DNA of 64,000 nucleotides from positions 20,460,001-20,524,000 of the forward strand of contig CM069147.1 of the NCBI GenBank assembly GCA_035221665.1, in the 5' to 3' direction. Position 1 is the stretch's first letter; each line of letters begins with the position of its first letter. Position numbers: made by a program. The DNA comes from Okamejei kenojei (lineage: Eukaryota). Of the stretch, positions 23,019-26,000 are shown piece by piece.

Positions 23019-26000
23019 CGGTTGTTGGGTTGCTTTGTCAGTTTATTACAAGCAATTCATTTAGAAAGTTTGACTTAATTTACTTAATCAGGATTATCTT
23101 TAACGATGAAATAAATCTTACTGTTTATTCCCGGACTTTAAGCAGTTTCAGTTGAGATGTTGTTTACTTCTTTTTTTCCCCCTACGGTGCCAAATTGGTG
23201 GGACAGACTGAAGTTGTGCATTAGAAAATTAGTGTCAAACGTTTTCAAAACAAACAAAAAAATATTACATTGAAGTCAGCTTGGAGTCAGCAGCCATGAG
23301 ACCCACATGTTGGAACACCAAGGTCCTTGGGTTTCAGCTGCACATTGGTCTTCTGAGGTTCTAAAGCTGTCGATGTCGAATGGCAGACTCTACGATCGAC
23401 CTATTAAAATTGTTCCTGCTCTCTTTTCTTAGTGATGAGAAACCTGGACATCACACTCCAGCCATTCAAACTAACAGGAATATTATTTCAATATCGCATT
23501 GCAAAACATTTCTAACCACACCTCAGGATGAATTCCTTCCATCTTAGCACTTACCCGTTCTTAGCGATAAATCCATCTGGGAGATTGGCTTAAAATTCGC
23601 GACCGCTAAATGAATGGGCTCCAATGAAAAGGAGTATCGCAAATTCTCGTACAATGAACAGAATAACCCTCAATACCCACGCGTCCCACAAGTGCTACTC
23701 GACCTGGTGATTATATACATTGTGCTTTGTTTCATTTCGAATTACCAGTCCCTGTAATGCATTTATTTAAAATTGTTATTACCGGGTATTTATCAACAGG
23801 CGATTTTTCATATTATCCTCGCGACTTGGTTTTACTTTACAAATGACATAGAACTGAAATTTGCTTATGTCCCTAACACACACACTCACCAAATACAGTG
23901 ACCTGGCTGCCACTTCCATTCCCGATAACCCGATGCTGGAAATTTACTTGACAGTAATACAGACCGGAGTCAGCGACACGCGCATGTTGGAGAGTAAATG
24001 TTCCGCTTCCCGAATCTTTCGTAAATTGTTTTCTACTGTCCGATTCCAGGAATGTCTTCATGCCGCCCTTCCACCAATAAACGTCAATAGTGTCTTTCGA
24101 TATTGGAAATTTGCAATACATTATAGCAGTTTCTCCGCCGCCAACGTCCAAGTTGATAGGGAATTGAGACACTCTGCTCGAAGAGACTTCGGCGGCTGTC
24201 GGGAAAAAAAACAAGAACAATGGAAACAGTTGTACACGCTGGACAGAGAAAAGAAGAACCAACTGCCGAAAAGCACGAAACAATTATAAACCCACGAGGG
24301 CCTAATAGATAAACCTAATAGCTCGAAACCAGGTCCGAATTTTCGAAAAATAATACTTAAACCAGAAATGGCACACATATTTAACTATACCCTGCGTAAG
24401 TATAACCAGAAGAGCCATGGACCAAACTGTAACATTCGCCGACATATTACAAGAATAAATTGCCAACTTATTGTTAGAGTTGTTTACTCAAAACTCGCTC
24501 TGCGGGAAAGGAAATCACGAGTAAATATATGAAACGGGTGACCGTGACGTAATATATCCCACGACTGTGGCCGAGTAATGGGTCCTAAGTTTTGTTTGGC
24601 TAGTGCGGCAGGAGAGGTAATAGCTCGGCCCATTCCCATTGTAACGAAGCCTTGCATTACTTCCTGAATCATGTTCACAACCTGTTCCCCTTGTTGACTC
24701 CCGTAGCATCCAGATTTTTACTCGGAACTAAATATGCATCAGCTGCCTACTCAGTTAATCGCCACAAATCGTTTCAGCGTGGAAGGTAAGAAGGGCTTGT
24801 TAATATTTAGATGCATAAACGTAGATACCCACCTTCCCTTGAATCGCCCCTCCTTCCCAATTTGCGTTGTTCTCTTTCGCTCTTTCGATCAAATATCGAT
24901 CAACTATCACCCCTATCAAAAAAAATCGATCAACTATCACCCCTTTCGTTTCTTCCTGTTCAGCCCTCACCCATCGCCATCCGCAGCTTTCTATTGATTA
25001 TGTTTCCATCTGACGCTTTATCGCTAACTCCGGTTGCTATTCCCACGAGACTAAATCAACATGCTGGTTTTGTTAACTAATATTTCTACTATTATCATGA
25101 ACACCATTGCAGCAATGTTCTATGGGAGTCCAGCAGCGTCCAGCTAAAAAATCGACTTTGTATGTCTAATCTATTGCTAAAAAAAACTGGCTTCTATTTG
25201 AACTTTCATGTAAAGATTGCGTAATGTTCGGGTTTTAAGTCTGTCGACACGAACCGTTCAAACGATGAGCTGCAACAAAAACATTCCGGTTTGGGATGCT
25301 GGTCATGAAGATAATGAAGACTGGACTCAGATTTAAAGCTGCACGTTGTTTCTATTTTAGTGATGACAGCAGTGTAAAGAAACCAGCGGCAGTTCGAGAA
25401 AACCTGAGCACTCGGCAAATCTGACAAATTAAGGATTTCTGTGCATGTTTACAAGCTACTGTCAGCGATTCGCCATGAGCTGTTCTGCAATAATGGACCA
25501 ATAATAATCTTACAAAAATGGATTTGAAGAAATTTTATTTGCCACATTTTGAGGAAATGCATCGGTATATTCCATTGGCAAGCGACAACTGAAATAGATT
25601 ATGTTTGCATTATTAATTTAACGTCGATAAAATGTTTCTAAGATGGCTCCCAGATTTTTAAAGTTTCATTAAATTAGATTAATTTAGTAAACAGCAGGCG
25701 CGGAAAGCTTTGGGCAACATAAAAAAATGCATGTTCTGCTTTGTATCAAGTGTTTGAATACCTTTGATAGTCTCGACAAATAAGATTATTCTTTAAATGA
25801 ACTGGCAGACTGTGGATCGACTGCGAGGCTATTTTTTCCATTTTGAGGCAGAGAAAATTTAACCAACGCACGAGATAATCTTTCATAACGTTAGACCTTT
25901 GCATTGTTGATGACCTCATCGCAGATACGTTTTCCAAATATTATTAACGATGTCTGATGGGAATAATTGGTTAGATTGTGTTTTTATTCTCCTTTCGACA

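What the first reader, a model, noticed from the sequence alone, without database searches (positions are those of the whole stretch)
23890..24195. Unusually short V domain (53 residues between cysteines) with a conserved NGS sequon in the J-like strand
Seen: in both genes the B- and F-strand cysteines are at exon-encoded residues 28 and 82, and the W-to-DSG segment is very short. Both keep GNGSG in the G strand. Known: conventional Ig/TCR V domains have roughly 65-75 residues between the cysteines; shark VNAR is shortened by loss of the CDR2/C'' region; NKp30 and CD28/CTLA-4 family V domains carry an NGT sequon in the G strand. Inference: a minimal, CDR2-less V fold that combines VNAR-like compaction with an NKp30/CD28-like G strand.
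Basis: partly seen in the sequence, partly recalled or inferred. Interest (0 to 1): 0.7.

Follow-up and report, generated by a model that had tools for sequence, protein, structure and literature searches.

The report
Truncated V domain of shark receptors
The exon encodes the outer immunoglobulin domain of a cartilaginous-fish family of non-rearranging, probably inhibitory surface receptors, and this domain is a truly shortened V-type fold without the CDR2 strands, resembling shark single-domain antibody heads and the B-cell protein CD79b.

Summary
Window 23890-24195 (minus strand) is a phase 1-1 exon with AG/GT borders. It encodes an Ig domain with cysteines at exon residues 28 and 82, so 53 residues lie between them, and it carries GNGSG in the last strand. 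A gapless paralogue (51 of 101 identical) lies at 52053-52358.

Both exons head tandem genes built leader - V - C1-set - TM - tail. Gene 1's tail carries one ITIM and one ITSM. Relatives form a multigene family whose named members are all sharks, rays or chimaera. Automated annotation names them inconsistently (SIRP-alpha-like, B7-H6-like, Ig-lambda-like, tapasin-like), and I found no paper describing them.

An AlphaFold2 model (pLDDT 91.6) shows strands A, A', B, C, D, E, F and G. C' is reduced to a one-residue bridge and C'' is absent. The G strand is split by a G-S-G bulge. The nearest solved folds are CD79b and shark VNAR, then TCR V domains.

The NKp30/CD28 comparison does not hold. The Asn occupies the position of the J-motif Phe/Trp before GxG, not the position between the glycines. 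The sequon is frequent (40 of 63 rows) but not universal.

Verdict: a new variant of a known kind (non-rearranging VJ-C1 receptors), of moderate interest.

The parts
23890..24195 (-). Gene 1 V-like exon, the finding itself. 306 nt, phase 1-1. Contains C27, W40, W41, D75-S-G, Y79, C81 and the G-strand motif I-G-N-G-S-G-S-Q-V-T-V.
   Evidence: AG acceptor, GTGAGT donor; Pfam V-set 35.8 and I-set 34.5 bits; AF2 pLDDT 91.6.
23912..23920 (-). N92-G93-S94 sequon of gene 1. N92 sits at the position of the J-motif Phe/Trp. G93-S94-G95 (23909-23917) is the predicted beta-bulge.
   Evidence: translation; DSSP break at residues 93-95; family counts.
24032..24067 (-). C-to-D connection (residues 43-54, GGMKTFLESDSR). 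It replaces the C', CDR2 and C'' region and has only a one-residue beta bridge, at F48.
   Evidence: The family consensus W-W-K-x-G-E-x-x-F-L-x-x-D-S-R-K is conserved here, with R54 in at least 90% of rows.
24488..24557 (-). Gene 1 leader-like exon (hydrophobic, GTAAAC donor, phase 1). It has ATA where ATG is expected, and no in-frame ATG follows the upstream stop.
   Evidence: Placement rests on similarity to gene 2 and family leaders only; there is no transcript evidence.
21561..21854 (-). Gene 1 C1-set exon (294 nt, phase 1-1).
   Evidence: Pfam C1-set 55.9 bits against a cut-off of 21. Best PDB relatives are Ig lambda, mu and epsilon constant domains and MHC class II beta-2. Borders.
20927..21025 (-). 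Gene 1 transmembrane exon (99 nt).
   Evidence: hydrophobic run, AG/GTAAGT. Homologous to the gene 2 TM exon.
20245..20288 (-). Gene 1 first cytoplasmic exon (approximate).
   Evidence: tblastn hit of P0035; borders AG/GTAGGT.
11888..11998 (-). Gene 1 cytoplasmic exon with A-A-Y-A-T-L. This is ITIM-like but carries Ala at position -2.
   Evidence: tblastn of P0020, P0026 and P0055, E 1.5e-6 to 9e-5; borders.
10896..11033 (-). Gene 1 last coding exon with L-T-Y-A-T-V (canonical ITIM), T-V-Y-A-D-V (canonical ITSM) and the stop codon.
   Evidence: tblastn of P0026 and P0020, E 7e-11 and 4e-10; translation.
52561..52615 (-). Gene 2 leader exon (ATG at 52615, hydrophobic signal peptide, GTACGC donor, phase 1).
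52053..52358 (-). Gene 2 V-like exon. 306 nt, gapless paralogue of the finding, with C27 and C81 at the same positions. The NGS sequon is at 52075-52083, and there is a second sequon, NVS, at residue 22.
45867..46163 (-). Gene 2 C1-set exon (297 nt).
   Evidence: Pfam C1-set 47.3 bits; 58 of 97 aligned residues identical to the gene 1 C1 exon; borders.
45511..45609 (-). Gene 2 transmembrane exon (99 nt), with a Cys at the outer end of the hydrophobic run.
   Evidence: tblastn of six family proteins, E 4e-6 to 3e-3; borders.
43079..43195 (-). Gene 2 candidate last coding exon. It is homologous in position and acceptor context to gene 1's last exon but has no canonical ITIM or ITSM. The tail exons between the TM exon and this one were not found.
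   Evidence: Weak tblastn hits, E about 1; reading frame and stop codon.

Best explanation
The exon encodes the membrane-distal domain of a germline-encoded, non-rearranging receptor. The architecture is signal peptide, truncated V-type domain with a J-like last strand, one C1-set domain, a transmembrane helix and a tyrosine-motif tail. The window holds two tandem paralogues of a multigene family seen so far only in cartilaginous fish.

Shown here:
- The domain keeps the V-domain core (Cys-Trp-Cys, the D-x-G-x-Y-x-C motif, the A/A' split, and a GxG bulge followed by [ST]-x-L-x-V).
- Twelve to fourteen mostly non-strand residues replace the C', CDR2 and C'' region.
- The position that carries the interface Phe/Trp in antibody and TCR J segments is always polar. 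It is usually the Asn of an N-x-S/T sequon.

Inferred:
- The head works as a single, unpaired binding module, as VNAR and CD79 domains do. Ligand contact would come from the B-C and F-G loops and the C-F-G face.
- The polar or glycosylated residue at the J-Phe position, together with the loss of C'/C'', removes the surface that antibody V domains use to pair.
- Ligand engagement would lead to phosphorylation of the ITIM and ITSM in the tail and recruitment of SH2 phosphatases (SHP-1/SHP-2). That would make most members inhibitory.
- Members with short or basic tails would be activating or decoy counterparts.
For: Exon and paralogue.

Gene architecture in the window.

C1-set identity: Pfam 55.9 and 47.3 bits; the nearest PDB sequences are Ig lambda, mu and epsilon constant domains and MHC class II beta-2.

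Full-length relatives with the same order of parts and repeated [ILV]xYxx[LV] or TxYxx[VI] tail motifs.

Family range:
- 33 of 34 hits to P0020 carry a source name, and all 33 are chondrichthyan.
- 38 of 42 hits to the full-length profile are chondrichthyan, covering sharks, rays and Callorhinchus. By precomputed Pfam, 36 of those 38 have a C1-set domain.

Fold:
- AF2 model with pLDDT 91.6 and pTM 0.83. Strands are 9-11, 14-17, 23-28, 36-42, a bridge at 48, 55-60, 63-68, 77-85, 88-92 and 96-100.
- Relative P0171 has the same V topology, with V and C1 blocks at pLDDT 95-98, followed by a TM helix and a disordered tail.
- Foldseek top ranks are CD79b and VNAR.
- In the profile search of the PDB, the best end-to-end single domains are VNAR (4hgm 40.3 bits; 4hgk_C 53.4 bits, which includes leader columns), TCR V (39.2), and CD79b (37.3).

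G-strand statistics over 63 rows:
- Position 92: N 42, T 6, R 4, S 3, D 3, K 2, E 2, A 1. None is aromatic or aliphatic.
- G93 in 57 rows, G95 in 61, S/T96 in 59, L/I/F/V98 in 62, V100 in 61.

Purifying selection on both exons.

That GxG implies a beta-bulge, and the J consensus itself: PMC11599192, passages read.

That the J-motif Phe/Trp lies in the VH-VL interface, and that ITIM/ITSM recruit SHP-1/2, is established knowledge that I recalled and did not test.
Against: - There is no transcript or protein evidence for either window gene.
- Gene 1's leader-like exon has ATA where the start codon is expected, and I found no other leader. Gene 1 may therefore be untranslated or may use an exon I did not find.
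- Gene 2's candidate last exon has no canonical ITIM or ITSM, and its middle tail exons were not found.
- The topology rests on AlphaFold2 models, not experiment. DSSP can miss short edge strands, and I could not read coordinates. Exposure of N92 is therefore inferred, not measured.
- The sequon is absent from 17 of 63 rows, and N-G-S occupancy is unknown.
- The counts over 63 rows are not phylogenetically independent.
- C1-set domains usually pair, so the whole receptor may well be a dimer. Three relatives have a Cys inside the bulge (P0026, P0151, P0154), which could link two heads.
Confidence: 0.7

Rival explanations
1. [quoted passage not shown] On this reading the short V is only a lineage-specific trim. 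This rival concerns family identity, not mechanism, and is compatible with the best explanation.
For: [quoted passage not shown] 2019 was seen in that paper's reference list). From my recollection of the abstract only, PRARP has two adjacent genes, a J-like segment, a possible ITIM, and a V-C1 structure in non-avian species. The window matches all four points.
Against: The primary paper is not held, and I had no PRARP sequence, so orthology is untested. As recalled, PRARP was reported from bony fish to birds. Every named V-C1 relative found here is chondrichthyan. The only named tetrapod hits are turtle multi-V proteins without a C1 domain.
Confidence: 0.2
2. The genes are diverged SIRP-family members (SIRP-alpha-like inhibitory receptors) that lost one C1 domain and part of the V domain.
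For: NCBI's pipeline names many members 'tyrosine-protein phosphatase non-receptor type substrate 1-like' or 'signal-regulatory protein beta-1-like'. SIRP is a joined-VJ IgSF member with C1 domains. The tails carry repeated ITIM-like motifs.
Against: The same family is equally often named B7-H6-like, Ig-lambda-like, TCR-beta-like, tapasin-related, PD-L1-like or butyrophilin-like, so the names carry little weight. There is one C1 domain, not two. No SIRP chain is among the 60 best PDB sequence hits for the V exon, the V profile or the C1 exon. A separate protein with three full-length V domains (66 residues between cysteines; P0134, whose likeness to SIRP is my own reading and not a tool result) was found by the same search.
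Confidence: 0.1
3. The domain is an ordinary I-set domain of an adhesion-type IgSF protein, and its V-like features are coincidental.
For: The length (53 between cysteines) is typical of I-set domains. Pfam I-set scores 34.5 bits, above its 23.7 cut-off. The best single-sequence PDB hits are Robo1/2, contactins and MyBP-C. NCAM domain 1 is within the Foldseek top 50 (TM 0.76, rmsd 2.2 A).
Against: The I-set matches stop before the G strand (query 7-84 of 101). The V-set match runs to residue 100 and includes the GxG-[ST]-x-L-x-V strand. C', which defines the I-set, is not formed in either model. The next domain is C1-set, which is rare outside antigen receptors, MHC and their relatives. The best end-to-end single-domain matches are VNAR, TCR V and CD79b.
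Confidence: 0.07
4. The exon is a germline-joined V(D)J of a true shark antigen receptor (an Ig light chain or IgNAR-type cluster), not a separate receptor family.
For: Some shark Ig clusters are germline-joined (recalled). The genes have a split leader, a VJ in one exon and a following C1 exon. Some relatives are auto-named 'immunoglobulin lambda-1 light chain-like'. The two-domain model aligns to Fab light chains over both domains at E about 1e-16.
Against: A TM exon and a tyrosine-motif tail follow the single C1 exon. Identity to solved light chains is only 19-23%, with TM (target-normalised) 0.42-0.46 and rmsd 9-10 A. The 53-residue spacing and the missing C'/C'' are unlike Ig light-chain V domains. 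The family includes the chimaera Callorhinchus, and many paralogues lie on the same contig of chromosome size.
Confidence: 0.03
5. Both window copies are decaying or non-functional family members, so the short V domain has no present function in this genome.
For: Gene 1 lacks a start codon in its leader-like exon. Gene 2's last exon has lost the canonical tail motifs, and its middle tail exons were not found. Retroelements fill the introns and the spacer between the genes.
Against: All V, C1 and TM exons are open and have AG/GT borders. dN/dS is about 0.3 for both V and C1. A protein very close to gene 2's V exon exists in the representative library (P0040; my eye count is about 90 of 101 identical, a count that no call computed).
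Confidence: 0.15

Closest known systems
Shark IgNAR variable domain (VNAR)
   Same: Same host group. A V-type core with the CDR2/C'' region deleted. VNARs are among the top Foldseek matches (2coq, 9up9, 5l8k, 4hgk, 9uvh; TM 0.72-0.80) and the best end-to-end profile matches (4hgm 40.3 bits). The G strand of 4hgk_C aligns as G-D-G-A-G-T-x-L-T-V against the family's G-N-G-S-G-S-x-L-T-V. That is the same doubled GxGxG pattern, with a polar residue where the J-motif Phe would be.
   Different: VNAR is assembled by rearrangement and sits on a chain of IgNAR constant domains (recalled). Here V and J are one germline exon, followed by one C1 domain, a TM helix and an ITIM tail. The window domain is shorter still, at 53 against 60 residues between cysteines. 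4hgk_C has 1+4+2 inserted residues relative to the family profile. The profile scores for VNAR, TCR V and CD79b are about equal (37-40 bits), so no special kinship is shown.
CD79b (Ig-beta) extracellular domain
   Same: Best Foldseek matches (7wso_C at E 1.9e-9; 3kg5_A with TM 0.76/0.74; 7xq8_B; chain names). It is a compact, joined-VJ type domain (listed as such in PMC11599192). The profile match covers the whole domain at 37.3 bits. Three family members carry a Cys inside the G bulge, where I recall CD79 having its interchain cysteine.
   Different: CD79 has a single Ig domain, an ITAM tail and obligate pairing with CD79a and membrane Ig (recalled). This family has an added C1-set domain and ITIM/ITSM tails. 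Sequence identity in the structural alignment is only 23-25%.
SIRP family
   Same: Non-rearranging VJ-type head followed by C1-set domain(s). Has an inhibitory tail with several tyrosine motifs and paired members without such tails. The automated names of many relatives point here.
   Different: SIRP has two C1 domains and a full-length V domain (recalled). No SIRP chain is among the top 60 PDB sequence hits for any exon.
PRARP (Fu et al. 2019)
   Same: As recalled from the abstract: a pair of adjacent non-rearranging VJ genes with a V-C1 structure and a possible ITIM. The window has all of these.
   Different: No sequence comparison was possible because the paper is not held. PRARP was reported, as recalled, from bony fish to birds, whereas this family is found only in cartilaginous fish. 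Whether PRARP V domains are truncated is unknown to me.
UrIg / UrIg2 of elasmobranchs
   Same: Non-rearranging VJ in one exon with a split leader, followed by C1-type domains, and retained in cartilaginous fish (PMC12227049, sections read).
CD28/CTLA-4 family and NKp30
   Same: A GxG bulge in the G strand, with an N-linked sequon nearby. Five of 63 family rows have the Asn between the two glycines.
   Different: CD28-family members have a single V domain and a proline motif in the CDR3 loop (PMC11599192, abstract and passages). Neither applies here. In the window genes the Asn precedes the GxG.

Membership tests
Ig V-set domain (antigen-receptor type) | Conserved Cys - Trp - Cys core with D-x-G/A-x-Y-x-C before the second Cys | tested here: met
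   C27, W40, D75-S-G-L-Y-Y-C81. W40, D75 and C81 are invariant in all 63 rows.
Ig V-set domain (antigen-receptor type) | C' and C'' strands (a CDR2 hairpin) between C and D, and about 65-75 residues between the cysteines | tested here: not met
   53 residues between the cysteines. DSSP shows only a one-residue bridge between strands C and D in the window model, and nothing in P0171. The domain is 11-16 residues shorter than aligned light-chain V domains.
Ig V-set domain (antigen-receptor type) | J-type G strand: F/W-G-x-G-T-x-L/V-x-V with a beta-bulge | tested here: inconclusive
   G-x-G-[ST]-x-L-x-V and the bulge are present. The F/W position is polar in 62 of 63 rows and Ala in one, and never aromatic.
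Ig I-set domain | A/A' split, strands ABED / A'GFCC', no C'' | tested here: inconclusive
   The A/A' split is present and C'' is absent, but C' is not formed as a strand. Pfam I-set scores 34.5 and 23.0 bits against a cut-off of 23.7, and the match stops before the G strand.
IgNAR V (VNAR) | Assembled by V-D-J rearrangement and followed by IgNAR constant domains | tested here: not met
   V and J lie in one germline exon, followed by a single C1 exon, a TM exon and a tyrosine-motif tail. I did not scan for recombination signals.
IgNAR V (VNAR) | V fold lacking the CDR2/C'' region | tested here: met
CD28/CTLA-4 family | Single extracellular V domain | tested here: not met
   A C1-set exon follows in both genes. 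The family definition comes from the abstract of PMC11599192.
CD28/CTLA-4 family | Proline motif (PPP or similar) in the CDR3 loop before GxG | tested here: not met
   The F-G loops read Q-V-N-F-Q-H-R-V-I and Q-I-K-Q-Q-Q-Q-P-I, with no proline motif. The motif is described in the passages.
SIRP family | V - C1 - C1 ectodomain with a full-length V domain | tested here: not met
   There is one C1 exon per gene, one C1-set hit in the relatives, and a truncated V.
SIRP family | Cytoplasmic ITIMs (inhibitory members) | tested here: met
   Gene 1's last exon has L-T-Y-A-T-V and T-V-Y-A-D-V. Relatives carry them too. Gene 2's candidate last exon does not.
SIRP family | Binds CD47 | not testable with these tools
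PRARP | Non-rearranging VJ exon, V-C1 structure, ITIM, two adjacent genes (features recalled from the abstract) | tested here: met
PRARP | Sequence orthology or synteny with chicken, frog and fish PRARP | not testable with these tools
   The paper is not held, and no PRARP sequence was available to me.
CD79a/CD79b | Single Ig domain plus an ITAM tail | tested here: not met
   There is an extra C1-set domain, and the tail motifs are of ITIM/ITSM type.
UrIg/UrIg2 | VJ exon with a split leader, followed by many C1-type domains; V like VH and without a G bulge | tested here: not met
   There is one C1 exon and a predicted bulge. UrIg2 features come from PMC12227049.

The most novel reading that the evidence does not exclude
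This chondrichthyan-wide V(J)-C1-TM family is an undescribed lineage of non-rearranging antigen-receptor-like genes. Its truncated, bulged, polar-J head may be the closest surviving germline relative of the IgNAR/NAR-TcR V domain. In other words, it may be the kind of cell-surface receptor from which the single-domain VNAR head was recruited. The shared features would be the missing CDR2 strands, the G-(D/N)-G-x-G-T-x-L-T-V last strand and restriction to cartilaginous fish.
Probability: 0.1. Interest if true: 0.8.

Novelty: new variant of a known kind. Interest (0 to 1): 0.5.

Why it matters
Non-rearranging genes that join a V domain with a J-like strand to a C1-set domain are sought as relics of the precursor of antibodies and T-cell receptors. 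Examples are UrIg, UrIg2, PRARP and SIRP (PMC10751288 and PMC12227049).

This family adds a further VJ-C1 lineage. It is present in sharks, rays and a chimaera, has many paralogues per genome, and goes under no consistent name. Its head has independently, or ancestrally, reached the same minimal design as VNAR and CD79b.

Three things would follow if the glycan at the J-Phe position and the single-domain behaviour are confirmed:
- It would show how a V domain can be made autonomous without a partner domain.
- It would offer a natural small scaffold even shorter than VNAR.
- It would provide a set of probable inhibitory and activating paired receptors for shark innate or regulatory immunity, whose ligands are unknown.

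Tried and rejected
Cluster contents and names for the unnamed representatives therefore stayed unseen.
- The search for homologous proteins with the V exon and lengths 'longer' found nothing. The tool itself calls this weak evidence.
- Rfam found nothing in the window.
- Literature. Eight searches were answered and one was malformed. None surfaced a paper in the held library that describes a cartilaginous-fish V-C1 ITIM family with a short V domain. The two most relevant primary papers are not held: Fu et al. 2019 on PRARP and Flajnik et al. 2023 on UrIg. Supplements were not consulted. The supplementary alignments of PMC11599192 and PMC12227049 might bear on G-strand registers and on other shark VJ genes.
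- The Atlas look-alike search gave leads only. The nearest feature cluster is 'putative Antigen receptor (Fragment)' at 0.94, followed by PD-1-like and TIGIT-like clusters. No structure search was possible.
- Considered and rejected: CD28/NKp30 kinship (no single-V architecture, no proline motif, different sequon register) and UrIg membership (one C1 domain, bulge present).
- I did not run complex prediction. The report does not claim a specific binding pair, and a C1-C1 or V-V pass would mostly reflect likeness to solved antibody dimers.
Each exon was sent on its own, and the whole-protein view comes from database proteins (P0020, P0171 and others).
- The two N runs (5338-5530 and 61154-61562) were left as they are.
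- Nothing suggested a human contig.

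
Full report
**What is at the coordinates**

The finding lies on the minus strand. Window 23890-24195 is a 306-nt exon. It has an AG acceptor at 24197-24196, a GTGAGT donor, and phase 1 at both ends. My first translation at the given borders was out of frame. The in-frame reading of 24193-23891 gives 101 residues.

Below I number the 101-residue translation, in which they are C27 and C81.

A second exon of the same length lies at 52053-52358. It aligns without a gap, 51 of 101 residues are identical, and tblastn gives E 3e-29. 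Both exons read G-N-G-S-G near the end.

The window is not human. Every named relative comes from a cartilaginous fish or, more distantly, a turtle or a teleost. I did not try to name the species.

The two N runs (5338-5530 and 61154-61562) were left alone.

**The genes around the exons**

Each V-like exon is followed downstream on the minus strand by a C1-set exon:
- Gene 1: 21561-21854, Pfam C1-set 55.9 bits.
- Gene 2: 45867-46163, 47.3 bits. The cut-off is 21.

The nearest solved sequences to the gene 1 C1 exon are Ig lambda, mu and epsilon constant domains, MR1 alpha-3 and MHC class II beta-2.

Local tblastn with eight full-length relatives, and reading of the frames, placed the remaining exons. 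All internal exons have AG/GT borders.

- Gene 1 has a TM exon (20927-21025) and three tail exons (20245-20288, 11888-11998, 10896-11033). The last one carries a canonical ITIM (L-T-Y-A-T-V) and a canonical ITSM (T-V-Y-A-D-V).
- Gene 2 has a clean leader exon (52561-52615, beginning with ATG), a TM exon (45511-45609) and a candidate last exon (43079-43195).

Two blemishes need stating. First, gene 1's leader-like exon (24488-24557) has ATA where the start codon is expected, and I found no other leader on that strand. Second, gene 2's candidate last exon has no canonical ITIM or ITSM, and its middle tail exons were not found.

There is no transcript evidence for either gene. Each exon was sent on its own, and the whole-protein picture comes from database proteins.

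**The family**

An exhaustive HMMER search with the V exon gave 519 representatives at E up to 1e-3. Of these, 114 were at E up to 1e-10 and 10 at E up to 1e-30. The top of the list is filled by giant multi-Ig proteins that score by summation.

The single-stretch, end-to-end hits are proteins of 130-490 residues. The 25 that I printed include full-length members built as signal peptide, this V-like domain, a C1-set domain, a TM helix and a tail. Most of those tails hold two to four [ILV]xYxx[LV] or TxYxx[VI] motifs. A few members (P0105, P0110, P0130) have short or lysine-rich tails instead.

The names came from the word-indexed search:
- Of 34 hits to P0020, 33 carry a source name, and all 33 are chondrichthyan.
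- Of 42 hits to a 22-sequence full-length profile, 38 are chondrichthyan. They come from sharks of several orders, rays and the chimaera Callorhinchus. By precomputed Pfam, 36 of those 38 have a C1-set domain.
- Three hits are turtle proteins made of several V-like domains without a C1 domain.
- One is a teleost DCC-type protein at E 7e-6.

The automated names disagree with each other. They include SIRP-alpha-like, SIRP-beta-like, B7-H6-like, PD-L1-like, CD276-like, butyrophilin-like, TCR-beta-like, Ig-lambda-like, MHC class II alpha-like, and tapasin- or tapasin-related-like. This is what one expects for a family that nobody has curated.

Several paralogues lie on the same contig of chromosome size in each species.

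That search scored only the 8000 candidates sharing the most words. The apparent restriction to cartilaginous fish is therefore suggestive, not proven.

**How short is the domain, and where is the deletion?**

In the 63-row alignment, 61 rows have both cysteines. The spacing is 53 in 33 rows, 58 in 23, 55 in 3, 57 in 1 and 59 in 1. The two window genes belong to the shortest class.

The missing residues lie between strand C and strand D. From the D strand to the second cysteine the length is near normal. HMMER alignments to antibody light-chain V domains need 11-16 extra residues in the target over the same span.

The VNAR 4hgk_C has 60 residues between its cysteines. Relative to the family profile it shows inserts of 1, 4 and 2 residues (the count is mine, made from the printed alignment).

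A protein with three full-length V domains found by the same search (P0134) has 66.

The replaced segment is not variable. W-W-K-x-G-E-x-x-F-L-x-x-D-S-R-K is one of the best-conserved stretches of the family.

**Fold**

AlphaFold2 on the gene 1 exon with the 63-row alignment gave mean pLDDT 91.6 and pTM 0.83. DSSP on the model gives:

| Strand | Residues |
|---|---|
| A | 9-11 |
| A' | 14-17 |
| B | 23-28 |
| C | 36-42 |
| single bridged residue | 48 |
| D | 55-60 |
| E | 63-68 |
| short turn | 73-75 |
| F | 77-85 |
| G, first half | 88-92 |
| G, second half | 96-100 |

There is no C'' strand, and C' is vestigial.

A full-length relative of the 58-spacing class (P0171, 22-row alignment) gave the same V topology. 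It has nothing between strands C and D by DSSP, and a G strand broken at G-T-G. A seven- to eight-strand C1 domain follows, then a TM helix (224-254) and a disordered tail. The pLDDT is 95-98 in the two Ig domains and 73.5 overall.

These are predictions. I could not read the coordinates, so solvent exposure and loop packing are inferred.

**Nearest known folds and sequences**

Foldseek of the exon model against the PDB ranks the matches as follows:
- CD79b first (7wso_C, 3kg5_A, 7xq8_B; chain names).
- Shark VNARs next (2coq, 9up9, 5l8k, 7fbj, 7s83, 8ft9, 4hgk, 9uvh and others).
- TCR V-alpha and V-beta, lambda V domains, PD-1 and NCAM domain 1 are interleaved below.
- Query-normalised TM-scores are all 0.70-0.81.
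- No NKp30, CD28 or CTLA-4 chain appears in the first 50 ranks.

I also searched the PDB sequences with a profile of seven V-only sequences. The best end-to-end single-domain matches were:
- VNAR: 4hgk_C at 53.4 bits, partly from leader columns, and 4hgm at 40.3 bits.
- A TCR V domain at 39.2 bits.
- An 'Antigen receptor' chain, 9djw, at 38.3 bits.
- CD79b at 37.3 bits.

Titin, Robo, contactins and pIgR rank high by summed or partial matches.

Pfam cannot decide either:

| Query | V-set (bits) | I-set (bits) |
|---|---|---|
| Gene 1 exon | 35.8 | 34.5 |
| Gene 2 exon | 32.6 | 23.0 |
| P0020 | 39.1 | 30.8 |
| P0110 | 35.1 | 40.4 |

The V-set match runs through the G strand, whereas the I-set match stops at residue 84.

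The fair label is a V-derived domain at the V/I border. It has a J-type last strand, like VNAR and CD79b.

The two-domain model of P0171 aligns to Fab light chains over both domains at E about 1e-16. However, target-normalised TM is only 0.42-0.46 and rmsd is 9-10 A, so the domain composition is light-chain-like but the arrangement is not.

**The G strand and the sequon**

Counts across the 63 rows:

| Position | Residues |
|---|---|
| 91 | G 44 |
| 92 | N 42, T 6, R 4, S 3, D 3, K 2, E 2, A 1 |
| 93 | G 57 |
| 94 | T 31, S 19, N 5, C 3, G 3, A 2 |
| 95 | G 61 |
| 96 | S/T 59 |
| 98 | L/I/F/V 62 |
| 100 | V 61 |

Together with the DSSP break at residues 93-95, this fixes the register. G93-x-G95-[ST]-x-L-x-V corresponds to the GxGTx(L/V)xV of the J consensus. 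N92 stands where that consensus has Phe (consensus and the bulge argument from PMC11599192, passages).

As I recall those sequences, their Asn lies between the two glycines. Only 5 of 63 rows here have that arrangement.

The sequon N92-x-S/T94 is present in 40 of 63 rows, a shifted one in 6 more, and none in 17. It occurs in sharks, rays and Callorhinchus, so it is old. It is dispensable in some batoid paralogues.

Of the 42 rows with N92, 40 have S or T at position 94. Of the 21 rows without N92, 10 do (my count from the listing). This fits selection on the sequon. The rows are related, however, so this is not a statistical test.

Position 92 is never aromatic or aliphatic. In antibodies the J-motif Phe or Trp is part of the VH-VL interface (established knowledge, recalled).

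The VNAR 4hgk_C aligns here as G-D-G-A-G-T-V-L-T-V, also with a polar residue at this place.

**How it most likely works**

Shown:
- A germline-joined VJ-type head that lacks the CDR2 strands.
- A polar, usually sequon-bearing residue at the J-Phe position.
- A following C1-set domain, a TM helix and, in gene 1 and most relatives, ITIM and ITSM motifs.
- Purifying selection on the V and C1 exons (dN/dS about 0.3).

Inferred:
- The head acts alone rather than as half of a VH-VL-like pair. Both the C'/C'' edge and the aromatic J residue that build that interface are gone, and a glycan probably sits there.
- Binding would use the B-C and F-G loops and the C-F-G face.
- Signalling would be inhibitory, through SHP-1/SHP-2.
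- Relatives with short or basic tails would be activating or decoy partners.

The whole receptor may still dimerise through its C1 domain, through the Cys at the outer end of the TM segment seen in gene 2 and many relatives, or, in three relatives, through a Cys inside the bulge. I did not test any of these.

**Comparison with what is known, and novelty**

Non-rearranging VJ-C1 genes are a known kind.
- SIRP and PRARP are listed as joined-VJ IgSF members (PMC11599192).
- UrIg and UrIg2 are elasmobranch VJ genes with many C1-type domains (PMC10751288; PMC12227049).
- The family here fails the defining features of UrIg (many C domains, a VH-like V without a bulge), of SIRP (two C1 domains, full-length V), of CD28/NKp30 (a single V, a proline motif) and of CD79 (a single domain, an ITAM).
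- It fits what I recall of PRARP: two adjacent genes, V-C1, ITIM. Neither the PRARP paper nor any PRARP sequence was available, so that membership is untested.

My eight answered literature searches found no description of a cartilaginous-fish V-C1 ITIM family with a truncated V in the held library. Subscription papers and supplements were not seen.

I therefore rate it a new variant of a known kind. The boldest reading the data allow is that this lineage is the germline relative of the VNAR head. Profile scores do not single out VNAR over TCR V or CD79b, so I give that reading about one chance in ten.

Noticed in passing
window 24488-24557 (-): Gene 1's leader-like exon reads ATA at the place where gene 2 and the family have the start ATG. 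A second family-conserved Met position is also ATA. No in-frame ATG follows the upstream stop.
   Followed up: partly
window 43079-43195 (-) compared with 10896-11033 (-): Gene 2's candidate last exon has lost the canonical ITIM and ITSM that gene 1's last exon keeps. The pair may differ in signalling, or gene 2's tail may be decaying.
   Followed up: partly
window 50281-50664 (+) and 48536-49282 (+): A tyrosine-recombinase ORF (Pfam Phage_integrase, 28.7 bits) lies inside the V-C1 intron of gene 2. A 248-aa ORF without any Pfam hit lies upstream of it. This is possibly a DIRS/Ngaro/Crypton-type element.
   Followed up: partly
window 28413-31749 (+): A non-LTR retrotransposon lies between the two genes. 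It has a GDSL-esterase-like ORF1 (34.6 bits), an AP endonuclease (45.6 bits) and a reverse transcriptase (87.1 bits).
   Followed up: partly
window 39449-40408 (-), 5540-6505 (+), 61601-63079 (+): Further reverse-transcriptase fragments (50.4, 34.0 and 136.6 bits). Two of them abut the N runs.
   Followed up: partly
window 32833-33108: A 31-bp minisatellite with 8.9 copies and 94% matches.
   Followed up: no
window about 34327-34455 and 36070-36198 (-); also 33733-33852 and about 35568-35597: Identical translated strings turn up about 1.74 kb apart among the chance tblastn hits. This points to a duplicated segment in the spacer between the genes.
   Followed up: no
window about 3860-5010: A G-rich low-complexity block (GC skew +0.49 in 4001-6000) gives long Gly/Trp/Val ORFs on one strand and Pro/Thr/His ORFs on the other.
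   Followed up: no
window 14001-18000: A GC-rich block (0.52-0.55) lies inside gene 1's long tail intron and holds several 140-170-aa ORFs. The one ORF I tested (16588-17064, minus strand) has no Pfam hit.
   Followed up: partly
relatives P0026, P0151, P0154 (alignment A1, position 94): Three ray paralogues have a Cys inside the G-strand bulge in place of the sequon Ser/Thr. As I recall, CD79 chains have their interchain cysteine at this place.
   Followed up: no
relatives P0049, P0210, P0211 (turtles); P0004 (source not seen): Proteins made of four to six tandem copies of a similar short V-like domain, each ending in N-G-[ST]-G-T-Q-V-T-I, and with no C1 domain. This domain type may therefore exist outside cartilaginous fish in another architecture.
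   Followed up: no
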